Shown: in pieces, positions 4,579 through 35,627 of the stretch
How the letters are laid out: the number at the start of each line of letters is the position of its first letter
Numbering within the stretch: the first letter of the stretch is position 1
IMG/VR virus record: IMGVR_UViG_2737471842_000006
Coordinates: 1 to 36,776 of that record
DNA: 36,776 nucleotides
Reading direction: 5' to 3' (one strand)
From: a virus
Lineage: Duplodnaviria > Heunggongvirae > Uroviricota > Caudoviricetes
The notes under the pieces: model-generated
What the model saw: the letters and a program-made list of their open reading frames with translations, nothing else
The model's database searches: none
What the model was told of the DNA's origin: nothing
Program-made: the position numbers and the translations under genes

Positions 4579-4827
4579 CTACTCTATTTCTTCTTCGAAT
4601 GATTTTATTAGTCGGTCAATAACATCATCCGTTTCAATATCATTTCCGTCTGATTGCTTTAATACATCTATTGATTCTGCAGCGGTAAATTCCATCGCTG
4701 TGAGAAACTCGACAATTGTACACTCAACGACATATCGTTCTTCATCTGTACGACATGAGATAAAAGAGCATTTAATTGCTGTTATTACTTTTTGTTTAAG
4801 CTCTGCAGGGTAATCAGTTTTTATCAT
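4579..4827 (-). CDS. hypothetical acidic protein, 82 aa
   Basis: ORF with GGAG RBS 6 nt upstream of ATG at 4827; first gene after the tL1-like terminator. Confidence 0.5.
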   Translation of the reverse strand: MIKTDYPAELKQKVITAIKCSFISCRTDEERYVVECTIVEFLTAMEFTAAESIDVLKQSDGNDIETDDVIDRLIKSFEEEIE

Positions 4828-4840
4828 CGTTTACTCCGTC

Positions 4841-4869
4841 AAAAAAAACTGCCCTCACATTGGAGGGCA
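4841..4869 (-). terminator. rho-independent terminator (tL1-like) on the leftward transcript
   Basis: Minus-strand stem GCCCTC/GAGGGC with 6-nt loop followed by eight T; lies downstream of N. Confidence 0.5.
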
Positions 4870-5082
4870 AAGAAGATTTCCAATAATCAGAACAAGTCGG
4901 CTCCTGTTTAGTTACGAGCGACATTGCTCAGTGTATTCACTCGTTGGAATGAATACACAGTGCAGTGTTTATTAGTATGCCTGTCTTTTAACCACATCAG
5001 GCTCGGTGGTTCTCGTGTACCCCTACAGCGAGAAATCGGATAAACTCTATTCACCCCTACAGAGAGCAAAAGAGAAACGCCG

Positions 5083-5664
5083 ATGAACAACTCATGGTGG
5101 CAGGAACTAATGCATTTTTTCCTGCAAGGAATGACACTTAAACAGTTGATTCATATGCTAATCATCCTAATCATATTGATTATTGTTATGCCTGTAAGCG
5201 TAAAAGAATGGATAAACCTGCATAATCCAGAAATCCTTCCTCATTACTGGATGTATTACATCCTGTTGTTTTGCGTTAGCTATGTGCTTAACGGCGTTGT
5301 TAATTCCGCTTATCACGCTGTGACTGAAAGAATTGAGATATTCGCTGCTCAGAAGCGCAAATCTAAAGAAGAGAAATACGTGCAAGATTTGTTTGATTCG
5401 TTAACTCTTGGAGAAAGAGCGTATTTGGCATTCGCTGTAGCCGCTAATAACCAGCTAAAGACAGAAAAGGGAAGCCCTGAAGCAATCTCATTGCTCGAAA
5501 AAGGGCTTCTTATTCGGGTACCTTCTGCTACTGGATATCCTGAAATCGACCGTTTTGTTATCCCGGAACGCTATAGAAATGAGTGCTACATTAGGTTTGC
5601 TGGGAAGAAAGACAGTCTTATGGATGAACTTATCGCTCAGGATAAGCATGGCAAAAACAAGTAA
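5083..5664 (+). CDS. sieB: SieB-like superinfection exclusion / abortive infection membrane protein
   Basis: 193-aa ORF with two strongly hydrophobic N-terminal segments (LIHMLIILIILIIVMPV; YILLFCVSYVLNGVV); matches my memory of P22 SieB; AT-rich; opposite strand to the pL operon. Confidence 0.6.
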   Translation: MNNSWWQELMHFFLQGMTLKQLIHMLIILIILIIVMPVSVKEWINLHNPEILPHYWMYYILLFCVSYVLNGVVNSAYHAVTERIEIFAAQKRKSKEEKYVQDLFDSLTLGERAYLAFAVAANNQLKTEKGSPEAISLLEKGLLIRVPSATGYPEIDRFVIPERYRNECYIRFAGKKDSLMDELIAQDKHGKNK

Positions 5665-5680
5665 TTAGCAAATTAATTTA

Positions 5681-5953
5681 TCATCTCGCCGTCAGTTGTT
5701 TTGATTTCCGGTAGCCTGCCGCGTAAATGGCTACGTTTGGCAGGCAAATACTTCCACTGCATTCATCTGCCTTCTTGCAGCGAAGGCTTCCGAGTGATGC
5801 TGCTTTGTCTGCTCTGACGCAACCAGAGAGCTTTAGCGCAATTTTTCGCGCCAGTCGCTGTTCTTGCATTGCCTGCTCACGTTGAGCCTGTCTGCGTGCT
5901 CTGCGGCGATTTCTGGCGTTATCGTCAGCCAGATATGTAATGACTACTGCCAT
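5681..5953 (-). CDS. 24: N-like transcription antiterminator (P22 gene 24 family)
   Basis: N-terminal arginine-rich motif DNARNRRRARRQAQREQ and C-terminal YAAGYRKSKQLTAR like P22 gp24; GGAGG RBS; sits between nutL and tL1. Confidence 0.75.
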   Translation of the reverse strand: MAVVITYLADDNARNRRRARRQAQREQAMQEQRLARKIALKLSGCVRADKAASLGSLRCKKADECSGSICLPNVAIYAAGYRKSKQLTAR

Positions 5954-6058
5954 GTTGACCTCCGATGATTGACTTTGGCGGTGACGCGCCGGGTGCTTAT
6001 CTTCCGGTTGCCGTCGTGCAGCTGCATTTCACGTCACCCCAAAGCCAACTACTCTTTG

Positions 6059-6103
6059 GTTCCCGCATTTCGGCGGGACAATCCCATCAATGTTAAAGAG
6101 CCT
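6059..6103 (-). promoter_or_regulatory. nutL (boxA GCTCTTTAACA plus boxB hairpin)
   Basis: Minus-strand boxA-like GCTCTTTAACA followed by stem-loop TCCCGC-CGAAAT-GCGGGA; the same boxB recurs in nutR. Confidence 0.5.
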
Positions 6104-6124: not shown

Positions 6125-6240
6125 ACCAGCGTCCTGCCGATGACTTAAATTTAAGATTTCTTTAACTATTGGTCAAGAGCGTTTTTGAAGAAAACTTAAA
6201 TTTTGTTGCGAAGCTTAAGTTTTGCTTTGATTTTTAAAGG
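6125..6240 (-). promoter_or_regulatory. OL operators and pL promoter
   Basis: Repeated TTAAG...CTTAA operator half-sites; minus-strand TTGACC, 17 nt, TAAATT. Confidence 0.45.
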
Positions 6241-6268
6241 AAAGAAAAAAAGGGGCGAATGCCCCTTA
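6237..6268 (-). terminator. rho-independent terminator at the 3' end of c2
   Basis: Stem AGGGGC/GCCCCT with 4-nt loop followed on the minus strand by a long T-rich run; overlaps the c2 stop codon. Confidence 0.45.
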
Positions 6269-6916
6269 TGGAAGGTTTGCTATTTTTGCATCGACAACTA
6301 CACCGATGATTTTGCAGTTCCCGTTGATCTCAATCATCGGATATTGTGGGTTAAGTGGTTTTAGAAACCTTCTGCCAGCATCAATAACTAACTTCTTGAA
6401 AGTTGCCTCGTTTTCTCCTTCGAGCTTTGCCACTACCAGCTTCCCATTACGAGGTTCTACTTCAGGATCGACTAGTATTATCATCCCTTCCGGGATGCTA
6501 AGACCGGCTGGAGCCGTCATCGAATCACCCTTTACGTCCAGCCAAAACGAATCTTCTGAACAATCTACGGTTGTATCGTACCAGTTATCTATTGCACGCT
6601 TATGATATGGCTCTACAGCTTCCATCCAACATCCTGCGCTTACCCAACTAATTAGAGGATACGAACCTCTTGGATCATGCCTGCTGTGATAGGCAATGTT
6701 TGAAAGACTATCTTCTCCTTTCAACAAGTAATCAGGGGAGCACTGTAAAGCCTTGGCTAAAGCCAATAGGTTTTCGCCATTGGGCTCAGTTTCAGAACGC
6801 TCCCATTGGGAAATAGCAACATTAGACACGCCAACCATCTTGCCAAGGGCAGCCTGCCTAATCTTAAGTTCTTTTCTGCGAGCGCGAATACGCTCACCCA
6901 TCAGTTGTGTATTCAT
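6266..6916 (-). CDS. c2: c2 repressor (P22 CI-type, LexA-like autocleaving)
   Basis: 216-aa translation MNTQLMGERIRARRKELKIRQAALGKMVGVSNVAISQWERSE... is near-identical to remembered P22 C2 along its length. Confidence 0.9.
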   Translation of the reverse strand: MNTQLMGERIRARRKELKIRQAALGKMVGVSNVAISQWERSETEPNGENLLALAKALQCSPDYLLKGEDSLSNIAYHSRHDPRGSYPLISWVSAGCWMEAVEPYHKRAIDNWYDTTVDCSEDSFWLDVKGDSMTAPAGLSIPEGMIILVDPEVEPRNGKLVVAKLEGENEATFKKLVIDAGRRFLKPLNPQYPMIEINGNCKIIGVVVDAKIANLP

Positions 6917-29426: not shown

Positions 29427-31264
29427 TGAAAGTAACTGCAAACGGTAAGACATTTACCTTTCCTGATGGTACGAGCACCGAAGATATTGGCACCGCCATT
29501 GATGAGTATTTTGCTGGTCAGGCTGTTCAGCAACAAACAGTTAATCAGGCCAATAATGCACCAACACGGGAAGAACCATCATTGATGCAACAAGCTGGTG
29601 ATTGGCTCACAGGTGGTCAAAGTGCAGGGCAAATTGCAGAACAGGCTGGTCGTGGTCTGGTAAACATACCATTTGACGTATTGCAGGGTGGCGCAAGTCT
29701 GATTAATGCAATCAGCCAGGGGCTTGGCGGCCCCAAGGTTTTGGATGATGTTTATCGCCCTGTCGAGCGACCGACAGACCCTTATGCGCAAGCTGGAGAA
29801 ACAATTGGCGGGTATTTAGTTCCAGGAGTTGGAACGGCAGGAAGCATGGCTATTGGATCACTGGCAGAGGCCGCAAATCAGAAAGGCGATTTCGCACAAA
29901 ATGCAGCTAAAAATGCCGGAGTTAACCTTGCCGCTCAGGGTGTTCTTTCCGCAGCAGCAAAGGGAATAGGGCGTGGAATAACGGCTATAAAAGGTGATAT
30001 TGCGCCAGAAGTGGCGAAGAAAATTGCCACATCAGAATCGATGGGCGTGACACCAATGACATCTGATGTTATCCCGCCGAAAAATGCTTTCACTCGCGGA
30101 CTTACTCAGGATGCTGAGGGGGCTTTGCTCGGGACAGGCTCAAAGCGAGCTGAGCAATATGCAACGCGTAGTAAGCTGGTAAGCAATTATTTTGACCGTT
30201 TTGGTGAGTACAACCCTGATGATGTGGTGAAATCTCTTACCACCACGTTAAGGGGGCGGAAGGATGCCGCTGGCGCTGTTATCAATGACGTCACCAATAA
30301 AATGGGTAATGCCGCAGTTGATACCACAAATACCATGAATGCTCTGAATACAGCGATCGCAAGACAGGAACGGCTTGGGACGTCTGCCAATCAAAGCCTG
30401 CTTACATCCTTGCGTAACCTGCGTGAAGAATTAGCAAACCCTGCAACTGATTTGGATGTTACGTTTGATCTCTTGCGTCAGCACAGAACAGCATTTAGAT
30501 CTAATGTTCAGGGAGATGCTATGGTCTTCCCCAACCAGGCAAAAGCAGCTACCAATATGGTAGAGAATGCAATGTCAAAAGACCTTCGTAACGCAGTTGC
30601 AAAAAACCTCGGTGCGTCAGACGCAGCAAAATACCTTAAAGCAAATTCCGATTATGCAAACGTTTATAATAAGGTGCTTAATAAAAACATTGCTAACAAG
30701 CTCAACAAGGCAAGCAGTGAAGCCAGTCCTGAACTTATAAATACTGTTGTATTAAGCAGAAAACCATCTGACGTGAAACGAATCTGGAGCGCATTGGATG
30801 ATAAAGGGAAAGATGCTATGCGTGCAGCTTACGTCAGCAAAATAGCGGAAAAGGCCGGGGACTCTCCAGCCAAGTTCATCACTGAAGTTAATAAGCTGAA
30901 ATCTCAGTCAGGCGGTGAAATTTACAACACTATTTTTTCTGGAAAGCACATGAAAGAGCTTGATGCTCTTCATGAAGTTCTACAGCAAACAGCAAGGTCA
31001 GACACCGCAAATGTAGTAACTCAGACGGGGCAATCGCAAGCCAACAGGATAAGGACGATTGGCGCAACTGCGACCCTTGGCGTATCAATGGGGCTTGAGG
31101 CTGGTTTTGGTGCAATGATGCGCTTGTATGAGTCCAAAGCAGCAAGGAATGCTCTCTTACGTCTGGCAAACACTAAAGCTGGAACGCCAGCCTATGAAAG
31201 AGCGTTGAGTAACGCTGCAAATGCCATCAGGCCGCTGCTTGCTACTGAGGCAACACAGCAGTAA
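29423..31264 (+). CDS. 16: ejection protein gp16
   Basis: 613-aa ORF in conserved position; last gene of the ejection-protein trio. Confidence 0.75.
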
Positions 31265-31288: not shown

Positions 31289-31678
31289 CTAACATTTTCT
31301 TTTTACTTTTCCAACAAAAGCTTTGGTTGAATCCATATTTCCATAACCGGAAATGGTTTTTGACATTAAAACTGTTCCAGTAGGATGTATTACCCATGAG
31401 TCGATAACGCGTTGAGTTTCGCCATTCGCGCCGATTCCTATGATGGAGTTTTTAGACAATGCTTTGTAAGCCATGCCGCCCGCATCTGTCCCAGAATATG
31501 TGATGCTGGCATCTTCACCGTTTGTCTTAATGATGAATGTTCCACTAAAACCATCTTCTTCCGGATGGAAATTATTTCGTTCTGAATAGCTTATTCCGCG
31601 CATATCTCCAACGACCCAGCACTCTGCTGTAGCCCCAAAAGATATGAATAAGAACATAGCAGTAAGAAATTGCTTCAC
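31289..31678 (-). CDS. exported small protein (signal peptide, two Cys), function unknown
   Basis: MKQFLTAMFLFISFGATA-ECW...: cleavable signal peptide, mature about 111 aa with Cys at both ends; AT-rich; convergent with gp16. Confidence 0.55.
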   Translation of the reverse strand: MKQFLTAMFLFISFGATAECWVVGDMRGISYSERNNFHPEEDGFSGTFIIKTNGEDASITYSGTDAGGMAYKALSKNSIIGIGANGETQRVIDSWVIHPTGTVLMSKTISGYGNMDSTKAFVGKVKRKC

Positions 31679-31795
31679 GACAACCTCCTTAGTTTTGAGC
31701 AGGATACCATGAAAAAAGTAAACATCTTTTGCCTACTTCACATTTGAATGGTTTGTCATTAGGATGTTTCCGGTTTTTTAAATATGGAAATTGAT

Positions 31796-32215
31796 ATGAA
31801 GAGGATTATTGGCGTCGTTGCTGGCGCTATATTGTTATCTGGGTGCGCAACTATTGTTGGTGACGAAACGCAGCTTGTGCAAGTGAACAGCAATCCTTCC
31901 GGTGCGAGCTTTAAGGTAAAAGACGAATCAGGCGTGATTGTTGCGCAAGGTAAGACCCCGCAAGGAGTAACTCTTGCCAAGTCAGATGGTAGTTATTTTG
32001 GCAAAAAGAGCTACCAGATCACTATGGAAAAGGATGGGTACGAACCAGTTACCCTGCCAATCAAAGCCAATGCTAATGGCTGGTATATTGGTGGAAACCT
32101 TGTGTTTGGTGGGTTAATTGGTTGGCTTGCTGTAGATCCTTTTAATGGTGGGATGTATACCTTCAAGCCAAAAGAGGCAAACGCATCTCTTATGCCATCA
32201 ACAAAGCAAGACTAA
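31796..32215 (+). CDS. lipoprotein with PEGA-like domain and Gly-rich C-terminal hydrophobic segment; alternative start 31784
   Basis: MKRIIGVVAGAILLSGC lipobox; NPSGASFKV...GKTPQGVTL...DGYEPVTLPI resembles PEGA motifs; C-terminal GGNLVFGGLIGWLAV. Confidence 0.55.
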   Translation: MKRIIGVVAGAILLSGCATIVGDETQLVQVNSNPSGASFKVKDESGVIVAQGKTPQGVTLAKSDGSYFGKKSYQITMEKDGYEPVTLPIKANANGWYIGGNLVFGGLIGWLAVDPFNGGMYTFKPKEANASLMPSTKQD

Positions 32216-32223
32216 TAAATAGG

Positions 32224-32247
32224 ACCCACCTTCAGGTGGGTTTTTTG
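32224..32247 (+). terminator. rho-independent terminator after the lipoprotein gene, overlapping the mnt 3' end
   Basis: Stem ACCCACC/GGTGGGT with loop TTCA followed by TTTTTTG. Confidence 0.5.
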
Positions 32248-32483
32248 TACAAATCCTTCAGCGTATCAAACACCATCTTCTTAACAAGCTCTGACTGCTC
32301 ATCAGCGAGTCGTTCTGCATCGTCGCGATATCCAGTCACAGGCGATGGTTTTGATAGAGCATCTTGGACGATTTGTAACAACTCGGAGTTCATTGATCTC
32401 CCATTCGCCTCCGCCCTGAATTTTAATTTCTCCCTTACTTCCATAGGCATACGGAAGTTAAAGTGCGGATCATCTCTAGCCAT
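32232..32483 (-). CDS. mnt: Mnt repressor (immI)
   Basis: 83-aa MARDDPHFNFRMPMEVREKLKFRAEANGRSMNSELLQIVQDAL... matches remembered P22 Mnt. Confidence 0.85.
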   Translation of the reverse strand: MARDDPHFNFRMPMEVREKLKFRAEANGRSMNSELLQIVQDALSKPSPVTGYRDDAERLADEQSELVKKMVFDTLKDLYKKPT

Positions 32484-32505: not shown

Positions 32506-32559
32506 TTGACATGATAGAAGCACTCTACTATATTCTCAATAGGTCCACGGTGGACCTAT
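32506..32559. promoter_or_regulatory. Pant promoter with Arc operator and Mnt operator
   Basis: -35 TTGACA 32506-32511, -10 TATATT 32529-32534; Arc operator ATGATAGAAGCACTCTACTAT between them; perfect palindrome ATAGGTCCACGGTGGACCTAT (Mnt operator) at 32539-32559. Confidence 0.6.
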
Positions 32560-32573
32560 ATTGTGAGGTGAAT

Positions 32574-32735
32574 ATGAAAGGAATGAGCAAGATGCCGCAG
32601 TTCAATTTGCGGTGGCCTAAAGAAGTATTGGATTTGGTCCGCAAGGTGGCGGAAGAGAATGGCAGGTCTGTTAACTCTGAGATTTATCAGAGAGTAATGG
32701 AAAGCTTTAAGAAGGAAGGGCGCATTGGCGCGTAA
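32574..32735 (+). CDS. arc: Arc repressor (immI)
   Basis: [53 protein letters not shown], 53 aa, matches remembered P22 Arc. Confidence 0.85.
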
Positions 32736-32737
32736 AG

Positions 32738-32810
32738 TTGAAGCCCCAACTGCGGGAACAGTCAGGGCTTCGGTTGTCAGTAAATCCGTGGAGAAAAACC
32801 AACATGAATA
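32738..32810 (-). ncRNA. sar: possible sar antisense RNA across the arc-ant junction and ant ribosome-binding site
   Basis: Established P22 biology places a small antisense RNA here; the interval contains hairpin GAAGCCC...GGGCTTC; boundaries are approximate. Confidence 0.3.
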
Positions 32811-33706
32811 GTATAGCAATTTTAGAAGCAGTGAACACCTCTTACGTACCATTCAACGGTCAGCAAATTATCACCGCCATGGCTGCCGGAGTTGCATACG
32901 TTGCGATGAAGCCAATCGTTGAAAACCTTGGAATGAGTTGGGGTACTCAGCAACAAAAACTTATGAAACAACTAGATAAGTTCAACTGTATTCATATGAA
33001 TATGGTTGCCGCTGATGGGAAGCTTCGTAAGCTACTCTGCCTTCCTTTGAAGAAGTTAAATGGATGGCTGTTCAGCATCAACCCTGAGAAAGTTCGTGCT
33101 GACATCCGCGATAAACTGATTCAGTACCAGGAAGAATGCTTTACTGTGCTGCATGACTACTGGACGAAGGGAAAGGCAGAAAATGCACGTAAGAAAACAT
33201 CTGTTGATGACAGGACTCCGCTTCGTGATGCTGTAAATATGCTAGTCAGCAAAAAGCATCTAATGTACCCAGAAGCTTATGCAATGATTCATCAGCGTTT
33301 CAACGTGGAAAGTATTGAAGAGCTTGATTCATCTCAGATACCGCAAGCAGTAGAGTACATCCACAGGGTAGTGCTTGAAGGCGAGTTCATCGGCAAACAA
33401 GAGAAGAAAACCAACGAGATTTCTGCAAAAGAAGCAAACAGCCTTGTATGGTTATGGGATTATGCCAACCGTTCACAGGCATTATTCCGTGAACTGTATC
33501 CGGCATTAAAACAAATTCAATCGAACTATTCCGGCAGATGCTACGACTATGGTCATGAGTTCTCGTATGTTATCGGAATGGCGAGAGACGTTTTAATCAA
33601 TCACACACGAGATGTTGATATCAATGAGCCAGACGGACCAACTAATCTTTCCGCATGGATGAGACTTAAGAATAAAGAATTGCCTCCTTCAGTACATAAC
33701 TACTGA
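32804..33706 (+). CDS. ant: Ant antirepressor
   Basis: 300 aa from [47 protein letters not shown], matching remembered P22 Ant. Confidence 0.85.
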
Positions 33707-33806: not shown

Positions 33807-35627
33807 ATGACAGATATCACCGCAAATGTTGTGGTAAGCATGCCTTCGCAACTCTTCACTATGGCTCGTTCTTTTAAAGCGGTTGCCAATGGCAAAATTT
33901 ATATCGGAAAAATTGACACTGACCCGGTAAATCCTGAAAACCAGATTCAGGTTTATGTAGAGAATGAAGACGGTTCTCACGTTCCTGTTGCACAGCCAAT
34001 CATCATTAACGCTGGCGGGTATCCTGTATATAACGGACAGATTGCCAAGTTCGTAACTGTGCAAGGCCATTCTATGGCTGTTTATGATGCGTACGGTGTG
34101 CAGCAGTTCTATTTTCCGAATGTGCTGAAGTATGACCCTGACCAACTTAGGCAGGATCTTGCAGGACCAGATGGATATTATCTTATCCCATCTCTTATAC
34201 AGAAATGGAAAGATGATGGTGATTTACGTGGTTGGGGAATAGGAGAAGATGCATTTAACGCAGCTATGACTGAGATATCAGAAAGTGGCGGCGGCGTTCT
34301 TTATGTGAATGAAGACATCATTTTTAGTACAATTCCTATCATGCATAAGCCTGGGGTTACTGTTTACTGGAATAATCATCGTGCAATTGTTCCTGCCGGT
34401 TTGAGTTCAACATATGCGTATATAATGGATGGTGGTGCCGACACGCCTGTATACGATAATACCGATCATTTCACGCTAGCTAACAAGACGAATTGTTATA
34501 ATCTGCATCTTGAGGCATCTGACTATACTGTCGGTGTGAATGCTATTGGTGTATGCGTTAGGCATTGCTACGGATATACGTATGAAGGAGGGGCAATTAT
34601 TGGTTTCAATAATGGTGGTTATTACGATGAATTATGCTATGAAGGTAAAGTTAGTAAATTTACTATGGTTGTGTCCAACTCTAGAGCGGAACAATCAATA
34701 GGATTAAACAGTAATACTACGGATACTTGGTATTCGGAAATTTCCCCTGTTGGTTACGCATATGGCGGTAAAATGAATAGGAGTGGTAATAGCTTAGATA
34801 AGTTTCATCCTTGGGGGAATACTATCGATGATCGTGTTGGCTTAATGGGTAAAATGCATGTGGGATTGTGGGTTACTGAAAACGGAGGCTTTTCTACCTA
34901 CACCAATCTAATTTTGGACACTCCAGTAAGAAGAGATTCTAGTTCAGGTCCATCTAGAACTAATGGTGGTGTGGGTTTGATAAATGATGCGTGGGATACC
35001 AGTTTTGACGGTGTAATCGTCTCATGCTCTAAGCATGATATGGTGGCAAAAAGCACCCTACCAGTAATAACCTCATCACAAGGTGTAACCTATAAAGATC
35101 TTTCAGTTAGTAATCCTGAATACGCAACTGACATATGGGTATCATTTGAAAATAATTCTGGAATAGCTTTAAATCATATTATTGGATATGGATATGCACA
35201 ATTGATGCGTAATGGCGCTGGCATAAGCTCAACATCAGGAGCTGCTTTCGCTCCTGCAAATGGAGTTACCATTTCATTACAGACACTATCTTCTGGAATT
35301 TGGTATAACACATTAAACTTTTCCATCAGGACAACAATAACAGCCACATCATCTGCATCAAGCGATGTAATTGTTAATATTGCTCCTATGTATGGAGTGA
35401 GAAATGGATTTGGAGGGGCAGTTAAGGGAGGGCTAGATGCTTTCTTTTATGCAACCGCAAATACAGCAAAACAACTATATGATGTTTATGTTGAAGTAAC
35501 CTCTGCTAACACCGCCAAGTTTTTATTAACATTCATTGACGGAACAACAAGATATGCTAGATGGACAGATGTATCTAACGGATCTGCAAGGGCTATTTCT
35601 GTATCATGTAATATAGAGGTTAAATAA
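33807..35627 (+). CDS. tailspike protein: P22/Sf6-type N-terminal head-binding domain fused to a divergent receptor-binding domain
   Basis: First about 110 aa ([46 protein letters not shown]...VLKYDPDQ) are the conserved head-binding domain; the rest does not match P22 gp9 as I remember it and is visibly more AT-rich. Confidence 0.85.

What the first reader, a model, noticed from the sequence alone, without database searches (positions are those of the whole stretch)
5083..5664. AT-rich SieB-like exclusion gene on the opposite strand, wedged between N and tL1
The membrane protein is encoded convergently with N inside the leftward pL operon, so it must have its own promoter and would be expressed in the lysogen while the operon is repressed. 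Composition is much more AT-rich than its neighbours. SieB-type proteins abort lytic growth of superinfecting phages, so the resident phage needs an escape function; which gene provides it here is not evident.
Basis: partly seen in the sequence, partly recalled or inferred. Interest (0 to 1): 0.45.

Follow-up and report, generated by a model that had tools for sequence, protein, structure and literature searches.

The report
Known sieB/esc/sas phage exclusion module
This is an ordinary, full-length copy of the well-studied phage P22/lambda superinfection-exclusion gene sieB, and the "missing" self-protection function is carried by the same locus: a shorter in-frame product (Esc) and an antisense RNA (sas).

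Summary
The ORF is real: 5083..5664 (+), 193 aa, convergent with an N-type antiterminator gene (5681..5953, -) inside the pL operon. It is a true SieB: Pfam PF14163 E=1e-25, 84% identical to P22 SieB, 99% to the annotated HK140 gene, 27% to lambda SieB.

Its own promoter is present. Window 5016..5046 is 31/31 identical to the promoter annotated for P22 sieB, which puts the RNA start at 5053.

Esc is the in-frame product from Met25 (5155..5664), the only internal Met conserved across diverse homologues. The sas antisense RNA (5087..4978, -) is 107/111 identical to published P22 sas.

"AT-rich" is only partly right: 39.9% GC against 47.0% for the window and 52.0% for N, but the left neighbour is 34.5%. 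A conserved intrinsic terminator at 4870..4849 (-) fits "between N and tL1", though I could not verify the name.

Side notes: a 69-nt block (4978..5046) is near-invariant across three divergent sieB allele classes, and the predicted C-terminal domain looks like a winged helix.

Verdict: already known; low interest.

The parts
5083..5664 (+). sieB coding sequence (193 aa, 22.5 kDa): superinfection exclusion protein B
   Evidence: ORF. Pfam PF14163 E=1.1e-25 and PHROG 1301 E=6e-124. 84% identical to P22 SieB, 99% to HK140, 27% to lambda.
5155..5664 (+). esc: in-frame internal product from Met25 (169 aa, 19.5 kDa), the inhibitor of SieB
   Evidence: P22 record BK000583 annotates esc at 29830..30336, 72 nt after the sieB ATG. 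That maps to window 5155. Met25 is at least 90% conserved in 19- and 20-sequence alignments of diverse homologues, while Met10 and Met17 are not.
5016..5046 (+). psieB promoter, repressor-independent and active in the prophage
   Evidence: 31/31 identical to the promoter feature of P22 BK000583 (29690..29720). The consensus sigma-70 scan did not detect it.
5053..5053 (+). Predicted sieB transcription start, giving a 30-nt 5' UTR
   Evidence: Homologous position of the 'sieB RNA start site' at 29727 in BK000583.
4978..5087 (-). sas antisense RNA homologue; its 5' 35 nt pair with the sieB 5' UTR, Shine-Dalgarno region and start codon
   Evidence: 107 of 111 aligned positions match the P22 sas sequence published from RNA-seq (PMC13397905; alignment). 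It forms a perfect 35-bp duplex with sieB mRNA 5053..5087, -68.6 kcal/mol.
4978..5046 (.). Near-invariant 69-nt block (body of sas plus psieB) shared by all sieB allele classes
   Evidence: 100% identity at 68 of 69 positions, and 82% at position 4996, across 45 distinct haplotypes. Of the 69 nt, 47 (5000..5046) were the search pattern itself. Identity falls to background on both sides when compared with lambda.
4931..4958 (-). Stable hairpin just 3' of the sas block on the leftward transcript; role unknown
   Evidence: RNA fold -18 kcal/mol for 4925..4965. Present in all loci with a window-like left junction.
4849..4870 (-). Intrinsic terminator of leftward transcription (tL1-like) bounding the cassette
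   Evidence: 8-bp stem with 5 GC pairs plus a T8 run, -12.7 kcal/mol. Conserved in 16 other distinct left-flank variants, and replaced by a different GC hairpin at the same place in L108.
5681..5953 (-). N-type antiterminator gene, convergent with sieB
   Evidence: Pfam PF25694 N_peptide E=2e-15 and PHROG 271. HK140 annotation.
6062..6101 (-). nutL (boxA GCTCTTTAAC at 6101..6092; boxB-like hairpin at 6077..6062)
   Evidence: Motif search. Same relative position as the nutL annotated in P22 and HK140.
6148..6176 (-). pL promoter (TTGACC-17-TAAATT)
   Evidence: Scan hit identical in its hexamers to the P22 hit. The P22 hit coincides with the annotated early-left promoter 30892..30920 of BK000583.

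Best explanation
The locus is an orthologue of the P22/lambda sieB-esc-sas superinfection-exclusion module, carried by an E. coli P22-like temperate phage.

In the lysogen the pL operon is repressed. The repressor-independent promoter psieB (5016..5046) then transcribes sieB rightward from about 5053. Two proteins are translated from this mRNA. Full-length SieB (193 aa) is an inner-membrane protein with an N-terminal hydrophobic domain and a cytoplasmic C-terminal domain. Esc (Met25 to the end, 169 aa) is the shorter product.

When a heterologous lambdoid or P22-like phage superinfects, SieB aborts its lytic cycle midway by shutting down macromolecular synthesis (abortive infection).

When this phage itself grows lytically, leftward transcription through N runs antisense across sieB and yields sas RNA (about 5087..4978). 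The 5' 35 nt of sas pair with the sieB 5' UTR, Shine-Dalgarno region and AUG. This blocks SieB synthesis, while Esc, which starts 68 nt beyond the duplex, continues to be made and neutralises existing SieB.

Shown here: homology, gene order, the identical promoter, the conserved Met25, the conserved sas sequence and its complementarity, and the terminator. Taken from the literature: the exclusion phenotype, Esc inhibiting SieB, and the sas switch. Inferred: that sas derives from pL read-through rather than from its own promoter, that Esc acts by mixing with SieB in the membrane, and that the system is active in this particular phage and host.
For: Family membership: (118 homologues, all those named being called 'superinfection exclusion protein B').

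Synteny with HK140, P22 and lambda (ral or anti-restriction gene, then sieB rightward, then N leftward).

Promoter, RNA start and esc annotation in P22 BK000583, mapped base-for-base onto the window.

sas: the published P22 sequence (PMC13397905) is 107/111 identical to window 5087..4978, and forms a 35-bp duplex covering the start codon.

Met25 is the only internal Met conserved across the three allele classes and across homologues of 36-86% identity.

Literature statements on the mechanism: PMC12197685, PMC10883804, PMC3224144, PMC12888859, PMC10002423, PMC7380047.

Against: No experiment on this allele exists. The allele is 16% diverged from P22 SieB, mostly in the C-terminal domain.

There is no recognisable Shine-Dalgarno sequence before the Met25 AUG. 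Gene callers often pick Met10, which has AGGA 4 nt upstream; 184-aa versions appear.

The consensus promoter scan does not detect psieB, and finds no better-than-chance promoter for sas.

Predicted folds of sas and of the sieB 5' region are no more stable than shuffled controls (z = -0.8 to -1.5).

The window's sequence left of 4978 differs from P22 where the RNA-seq 3' end of P22 sas lies, so the 3' end of sas here is unknown.

The primary papers (Ranade & Poteete 1993) could not be opened. Mechanistic details therefore rest on secondary citations, on the BK000583 annotation, and on my recollection.
Confidence: 0.9

Rival explanations
1. The gene is a conserved but functionally silent passenger in this E. 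coli phage. It is a SieB homologue that no longer excludes any phage its host meets, or whose product has a different membrane role such as modulating lysis or lysogeny frequency.
For: CRISPRi knock-down of lambda sieB has no effect on plaque formation (PMC10695390). A P22 sieB-esc transposon insertion gave only a twofold change in lysogeny frequency, which the authors left unexplained (PMC12888859). PADLOC and NCBIfam have no model that matches the protein.
Against: The ORF is full-length. This pattern indicates purifying selection on the whole regulatory module. Dispensability for plaque formation is expected of an exclusion gene.
Confidence: 0.06
2. Self-protection in this phage is provided by a separate gene elsewhere in the early-left operon, rather than by Esc and sas.
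For: There is no Shine-Dalgarno sequence before Met25. No independent sas promoter was detected. The left flank differs from P22: ral is replaced by an 82-aa PHROG 14587 gene.
Against: Esc at Met25 is annotated for P22. Met25 is the only conserved internal Met. sas is 96% identical to the P22 RNA. The literature attributes escape to esc and sas. No other candidate gene was identified.
Confidence: 0.03

Closest known systems
Salmonella phage P22 sieB / esc / sas (Ranade & Poteete 1993; GenBank BK000583 29690..30336)
   Same: 84% protein identity. Same length within one residue. Same position, convergent with the N-type gene 24. The annotated promoter is identical over 31 nt, with the same RNA start position. 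Met25 (the Esc start) is conserved. The sas region is 107/111 identical.
   Different: The host is E. coli rather than Salmonella. The C-terminal domain carries most of the 16% divergence. The 5' UTR is 1 nt shorter. The sequence left of 4978 is unrelated to P22: there is no ral, and instead a hairpin, an intrinsic terminator and an 82-aa anti-restriction-family gene.
Enterobacteria phage HK140 gp46, and sieB of Stx1 phage VT1-Sakai and lambda-like phages 2E9 and 1H12
   Same: 98-99.5% DNA identity across sieB and N. The genes are annotated as superinfection exclusion protein or sieB. VT1-Sakai and the lambda-like phages match in one piece from about window 4842, so they share the terminator-sas-sieB cassette.
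   Different: HK140 carries ral between the terminator side and sas, seen as a three-piece match with about 540 bp of extra sequence. These phages belong to other genera with different virion modules.
Phage lambda sieB (git), 34482..35036
   Same: Same Pfam family, same place and orientation between ral and N, and the same 69-nt upstream block at 100% identity. The Esc-equivalent Met aligns, at lambda 34560.
   Different: Only 27% protein identity. The 5' UTR and first codons, which are the part that pairs with sas, are unrelated (33% and 3% identity in the two 30-column alignment bins starting at 5062 and 5088). A GGAG lies before the nearby internal Met codons in lambda (read from the alignment).

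Membership tests
SieB superinfection exclusion protein family (Pfam PF14163) | Significant match to the family profile over most of its length | tested here: met
   PF14163 E=1.1e-25, 90.4 bits against a cut-off of 26, profile positions 2-144 of 147. PHROG 1301 full-length, E=6e-124.
SieB superinfection exclusion protein family (Pfam PF14163) | Close sequence relationship to an experimentally characterised member (P22 SieB) | tested here: met
   84% identity over the full length to P22 SieB, and 27% to lambda SieB.
SieB superinfection exclusion protein family (Pfam PF14163) | Small membrane protein with an N-terminal hydrophobic domain | tested here: met
   Kyte-Doolittle 19-residue means reach 3.0 at residues 22-40 and about 1.5 at 55-75. 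The AF2 model has helices at 19-35 and 56-105. Topology was not determined.
P22-type sieB-esc-sas module | Gene lies in the pL operon between the N-type antiterminator and ral or anti-restriction genes, on the opposite strand | tested here: met
   The same order is seen in P22, lambda and HK140.
P22-type sieB-esc-sas module | Own promoter psieB and mapped RNA start upstream of the gene | tested here: met
   Sequence identity of 31/31 to the annotated P22 promoter, and the RNA start maps to 5053. Promoter activity itself was not tested.
P22-type sieB-esc-sas module | In-frame internal start giving Esc (Met25 in P22) | tested here: met
   An ATG at 5155 aligns with the P22 esc start. Met25 is at least 90% conserved, whereas Met10, Met17 and Met36 vary. 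Translation from it was not tested.
P22-type sieB-esc-sas module | Antisense RNA sas complementary to the sieB translation-initiation region | tested here: met
   107/111 identity to the published P22 sas sequence. It forms a 35-bp duplex over the 5' UTR and AUG. There is no Rfam family for sas, so no covariance-model test was possible.
P22-type sieB-esc-sas module | Prophage-dependent abortive exclusion of heterologous phages, with immunity of the carrier phage | not testable with these tools
   This requires plaque or efficiency-of-plating assays. It is known only from the literature on P22 and lambda.
Lambda tL1 terminator | First terminator of the pL transcript downstream of N, overridden by N | tested here: inconclusive
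   An intrinsic terminator at 4870..4849 (-) is the first strong one after N and is conserved. I could not retrieve coordinates for lambda tL1. From memory lambda tL1 is Rho-dependent, which a hairpin scan cannot detect. The leftward RNA has only modest C>G stretches at 5680..5601 and 5440..5321.

The most novel reading that the evidence does not exclude
The antisense RNA sas may be modular. Its 5' 35 nt, which pair with the sieB 5' UTR and start codon, differ between sieB allele classes and would set self versus non-self specificity. Its 3' body (window 4978..5046) is near-invariant in the P22/window-type, lambda-type and a third 179-aa type of sieB, even though the proteins share only 27-50% identity. 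That conservation extends about 40 nt beyond what the promoter needs. The body could therefore be a conserved scaffold for processing, stability or a binding factor, or a fixed recombination joint for swapping sieB alleles. Separately, the well-predicted C-terminal domain of SieB looks like a membrane-tethered winged helix, which would point to sensing of a phage nucleic acid or protein at the membrane.
Probability: 0.25. Interest if true: 0.4.

Novelty: already known. Interest (0 to 1): 0.12.

Why it matters
It matters little beyond correct annotation. The region should be labelled sieB, esc (from Met25), psieB and sas. Automated callers that start the gene at Met10 (the 184-aa versions) are probably wrong. 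The only leads with some value are two. First, the 69-nt upstream block stays near-identical while the protein diverges to 27% identity. Second, the molecular mechanism of SieB is still unknown, and a membrane-anchored winged-helix domain gives a concrete hypothesis to test.

Tried and rejected
- The primary papers (Ranade & Poteete 1993, J Bacteriol and Genes Dev), the lambda ribosome-profiling paper and the Casjens & Hendrix lambda review could not be opened. Details come from secondary papers and from the BK000583 annotation.
- A literature search on 'SieB' alone returned only botanical 'Sieb.' papers.
- PADLOC and NCBIfam have no model matching the protein. Rfam has no sas family; its only hit in the window is sar RNA.
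- The consensus sigma-70 scan does not detect psieB. It gave one antisense promoter-like site inside sieB (5198..5170), no better than chance and not conserved in P22. I therefore rejected an independent sas promoter as unsupported.
- RNA folds of sas and of the sieB 5' region are not more stable than shuffles. I found no support for a structural switch that hides or frees the Esc start.
- Met10 (AGGA 4 nt upstream) and Met17 were considered as the Esc start and rejected. They are not conserved in the third allele class or in distant homologues, and P22 annotates Met25.
- The protein-based scan of viral contigs returned only relatives of 91-100% identity. Allele diversity had to be reached through the DNA block instead, which biases the conservation estimate inside the 47-mer used as the pattern.
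- The position and nature of lambda tL1 could not be established.

Full report
**Observation**

It starts with ATG at 5083, stops at 5662-5664, and encodes 193 codons on the + strand. A 90-aa gene of the N antiterminator family lies at 5681..5953 on the - strand (Pfam PF25694 E=2e-15). The two genes are convergent, with 16 bp between their stop codons.

Further right on the - strand are these features:
- A boxA (6101..6092) and a boxB-like hairpin (6077..6062).
- A promoter-like site at 6176..6148 (TTGACC-17-TAAATT). The P22 hit with the same hexamers coincides with the early-left promoter annotated in P22 record BK000583.
- A P22 c2-type repressor gene at 6266..6916.

To the left on the - strand are an 82-aa gene of PHROG 14587 ('anti-restriction protein') and cIII. 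The ORF is therefore embedded, in the opposite orientation, in the pL operon.

The window as a whole is a mosaic E. coli P22-like phage. Its closest relatives are IME10, HZ41 and others, at about 96-97% identity over 46-66% of the first 25 kb.

**Composition**

| Region | GC |
|---|---|
| sieB | 39.9% |
| Whole window | 47.0% |
| N | 52.0% |
| Upstream spacer | 44.7% |
| 82-aa gene on the left | 34.5% |

sieB falls in the lowest 6% of same-length windows. The gene is AT-rich relative to the genome and to N, but not relative to its left neighbour.

**Identity**

- The protein matches Pfam SieB (PF14163) at E=1.1e-25 over almost the whole profile, and PHROG 1301 at E=6e-124.
- It is 84% identical to P22 SieB, 99% to the annotated HK140 protein, and 27% to lambda SieB.
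- Megablast finds the region in 384 phage records, where it is annotated as sieB or superinfection exclusion protein. One example is Stx1 phage VT1-Sakai, at 99.5%.
- A search of about 5.8 billion proteins returned 118 homologues. All of those that carry a name are called superinfection exclusion protein B, and they come from Escherichia, Salmonella, Citrobacter, Yersinia and others.

**Promoter**

The curated P22 record BK000583 annotates four features:
- a sieB promoter at 29690..29720;
- a 'sieB RNA start site' at 29727;
- sieB at 29758..30336;
- esc at 29830..30336.

Aligned to the window, the promoter corresponds to 5016..5046 and is identical at 31 of 31 positions. The RNA start maps to 5053, the sieB ATG to 5083, and the esc ATG to 5155. 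The promoter is non-consensus and was not found by the generic scan. P22 sieB is described as one of four systems expressed from the prophage (PMC10883804).

**The escape function**

It is in fact textbook knowledge for P22 and lambda:
- sieB encodes both SieB and Esc. Esc is an in-frame truncated form that inhibits SieB.
- A superinfecting or growing P22 makes the antisense RNA sas. This RNA blocks SieB synthesis but lets Esc synthesis continue.

The source is Ranade & Poteete 1993, as summarised in PMC12197685, PMC3224144, PMC10002423 and PMC12888859. Both parts are present in the window.

*Esc.* The ATG at 5155 is codon 25, giving a 169-aa, 19.5-kDa product against 22.5 kDa for SieB. Independent comparative support comes from the conserved upstream block, behind which three sieB allele classes are found: the P22/window type, the lambda type, and a 179-aa third type. 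Across those classes, and in alignments of homologues down to 36% identity, Met25 is at least 90% conserved. Met10, Met17 and Met36 are not. Many automated gene calls begin at Met10 (184-aa entries), probably because AGGA lies 4 nt upstream of it. No Shine-Dalgarno sequence precedes Met25.

*sas.* A recent RNA-seq study gives the P22 sas sequence as 127 nt (PMC13397905). Its first 111 nt align with window 5087..4978 (- strand) with three mismatches and one gap. The RNA starts 5 nt inside sieB, so it overlaps the predicted sieB mRNA (from 5053) by 35 nt. That overlap covers the 5' UTR, the purine-rich ribosome-binding region and the AUG. The duplex is perfect, as expected of a cis-antisense pair (-68.6 kcal/mol). 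The Esc AUG lies 68 nt beyond it.

I found no credible separate promoter for sas, and BK000583 annotates none. Published descriptions say that the superinfecting phage makes sas. I therefore infer that it derives from pL transcription reading through N. This step is inference.

**Terminator and left boundary**

The first strong intrinsic terminator on the - strand after N is at 4870..4849. It has an 8-bp stem with 5 GC pairs followed by T8.

The window differs from P22, lambda and HK140 immediately left of 4978. Those phages continue with about 23 nt more of shared sequence and then ral. The window, together with VT1-Sakai and several lambda-like phages, instead has a 107-nt spacer containing a stable hairpin (4931..4958; -18 kcal/mol when 4925..4965 is folded), followed by the terminator.

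Besides the window, 16 distinct left-flank variants share this junction:
- The terminator hairpin is retained in 15 of them, with changes only in and next to the loop.
- In one locus (L108) a different GC hairpin replaces it at the same position.
- The sequence to the left of the terminator falls into several unrelated types.

This argues for a functional terminator that also marks a mosaic boundary. From memory it is Rho-dependent, which these tools cannot test. The leftward RNA shows only modest C>G stretches.

**Conserved block**

Window 4978..5046 is identical in P22, lambda, HK140 and the third allele type. Identity to lambda drops to background on both sides, reaching 33% and 3% in the two 30-column alignment bins starting at 5062 and 5088.

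Among 45 distinct haplotypes, 68 of the 69 positions are 100% conserved and position 4996 is 82% conserved. There is a caveat: 47 of these 69 nt were the search pattern itself. Only the 22 nt at 4978..4999 and the flanks are unbiased.

The block covers the promoter plus about 40 nt further upstream, and this is also the body of sas. By contrast, the part of sas that pairs with sieB mRNA is the variable part. From memory, the lambda sieB promoter was originally identified by its homology to that of P22, so the conservation is at least partly known.

**Protein architecture**

An AlphaFold2 model built from a 20-sequence alignment has mean pLDDT 81.8, with values above 85 for residues 71-190 and 58-72 for the N-terminal 60 residues. 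It predicts three parts:
- N-terminal helices, including the hydrophobic segment at 19-35;
- a long helix at 56-105;
- a compact C-terminal domain at about 109-172 with helix-strand-helix-strand-strand-helix order.

SieB therefore looks like a membrane-anchored winged-helix-like domain. This is a moderate-confidence structural lead, not a mechanism.

Esc would lack the first 24 residues: the N-terminal amphipathic helix and the start of the first hydrophobic helix. It would keep the rest of the protein. That is compatible with, but does not prove, inhibition by forming mixed assemblies with SieB.

**Verdict**

The gene has its own conserved promoter. The escape function is provided by the same locus through Esc and sas. 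Nothing about the locus departs from the known P22/lambda system except the already common variant of the left flank. I classify it as already known and of low interest. The two side leads are the invariant sas/psieB block and the winged-helix-like domain.

Noticed in passing
window 32736..32803 (-), with 32232..32483 (-), 32511..32735 (+) and 32738..33706 (+): There is an Rfam sar RNA hit (95.6 bits) antisense to the start of an ant-like gene, with Mnt-like and Arc-like ORFs beside it. This is a P22-type immI region. No obvious sieA is present; instead there are a 129-aa ORF (31289..31678, -) and a 143-aa lipoprotein-like ORF (31784..32215, +).
   Followed up: partly
window 4978..5046: This 69-nt block is near-invariant across P22-type, lambda-type and a third (179-aa) sieB allele class, whose proteins are only 27-50% identical. 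It extends about 40 nt upstream of the promoter and equals the 3' body of sas, whereas the mRNA-pairing 5' part of sas is allele-specific.
   Followed up: partly
window 4849..4977; loci L106, L108, L138, L139, L144 and others: A terminator-plus-hairpin spacer left of sas is shared by phages carrying any of the three sieB allele types. It is followed by several unrelated downstream genes, and in L108 a different hairpin occupies the terminator position. It looks like a mosaic recombination joint.
   Followed up: partly
[not shown]
   Followed up: partly
window 5110 (Met10): Many database entries for this protein are 184-186 aa and start at Met10, which has AGGA 4 nt upstream. The P22 annotation and sequence conservation instead favour Met1 for SieB and Met25 for Esc. 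This is probably a recurrent mis-call.
   Followed up: partly
window 4579..4827 (-): An 82-aa gene of PHROG 14587 ('anti-restriction protein') occupies the place where P22, lambda and HK140 carry ral. It has no Pfam or NCBIfam match, and at 34.5% GC it is the most AT-rich gene in the neighbourhood.
   Followed up: no
window 5974..5993 (+): A weak terminator-like hairpin on the + strand lies in the N leader. sieB transcripts from the prophage would first run antisense through all of N. Possible interference with N expression was not examined.
   Followed up: no
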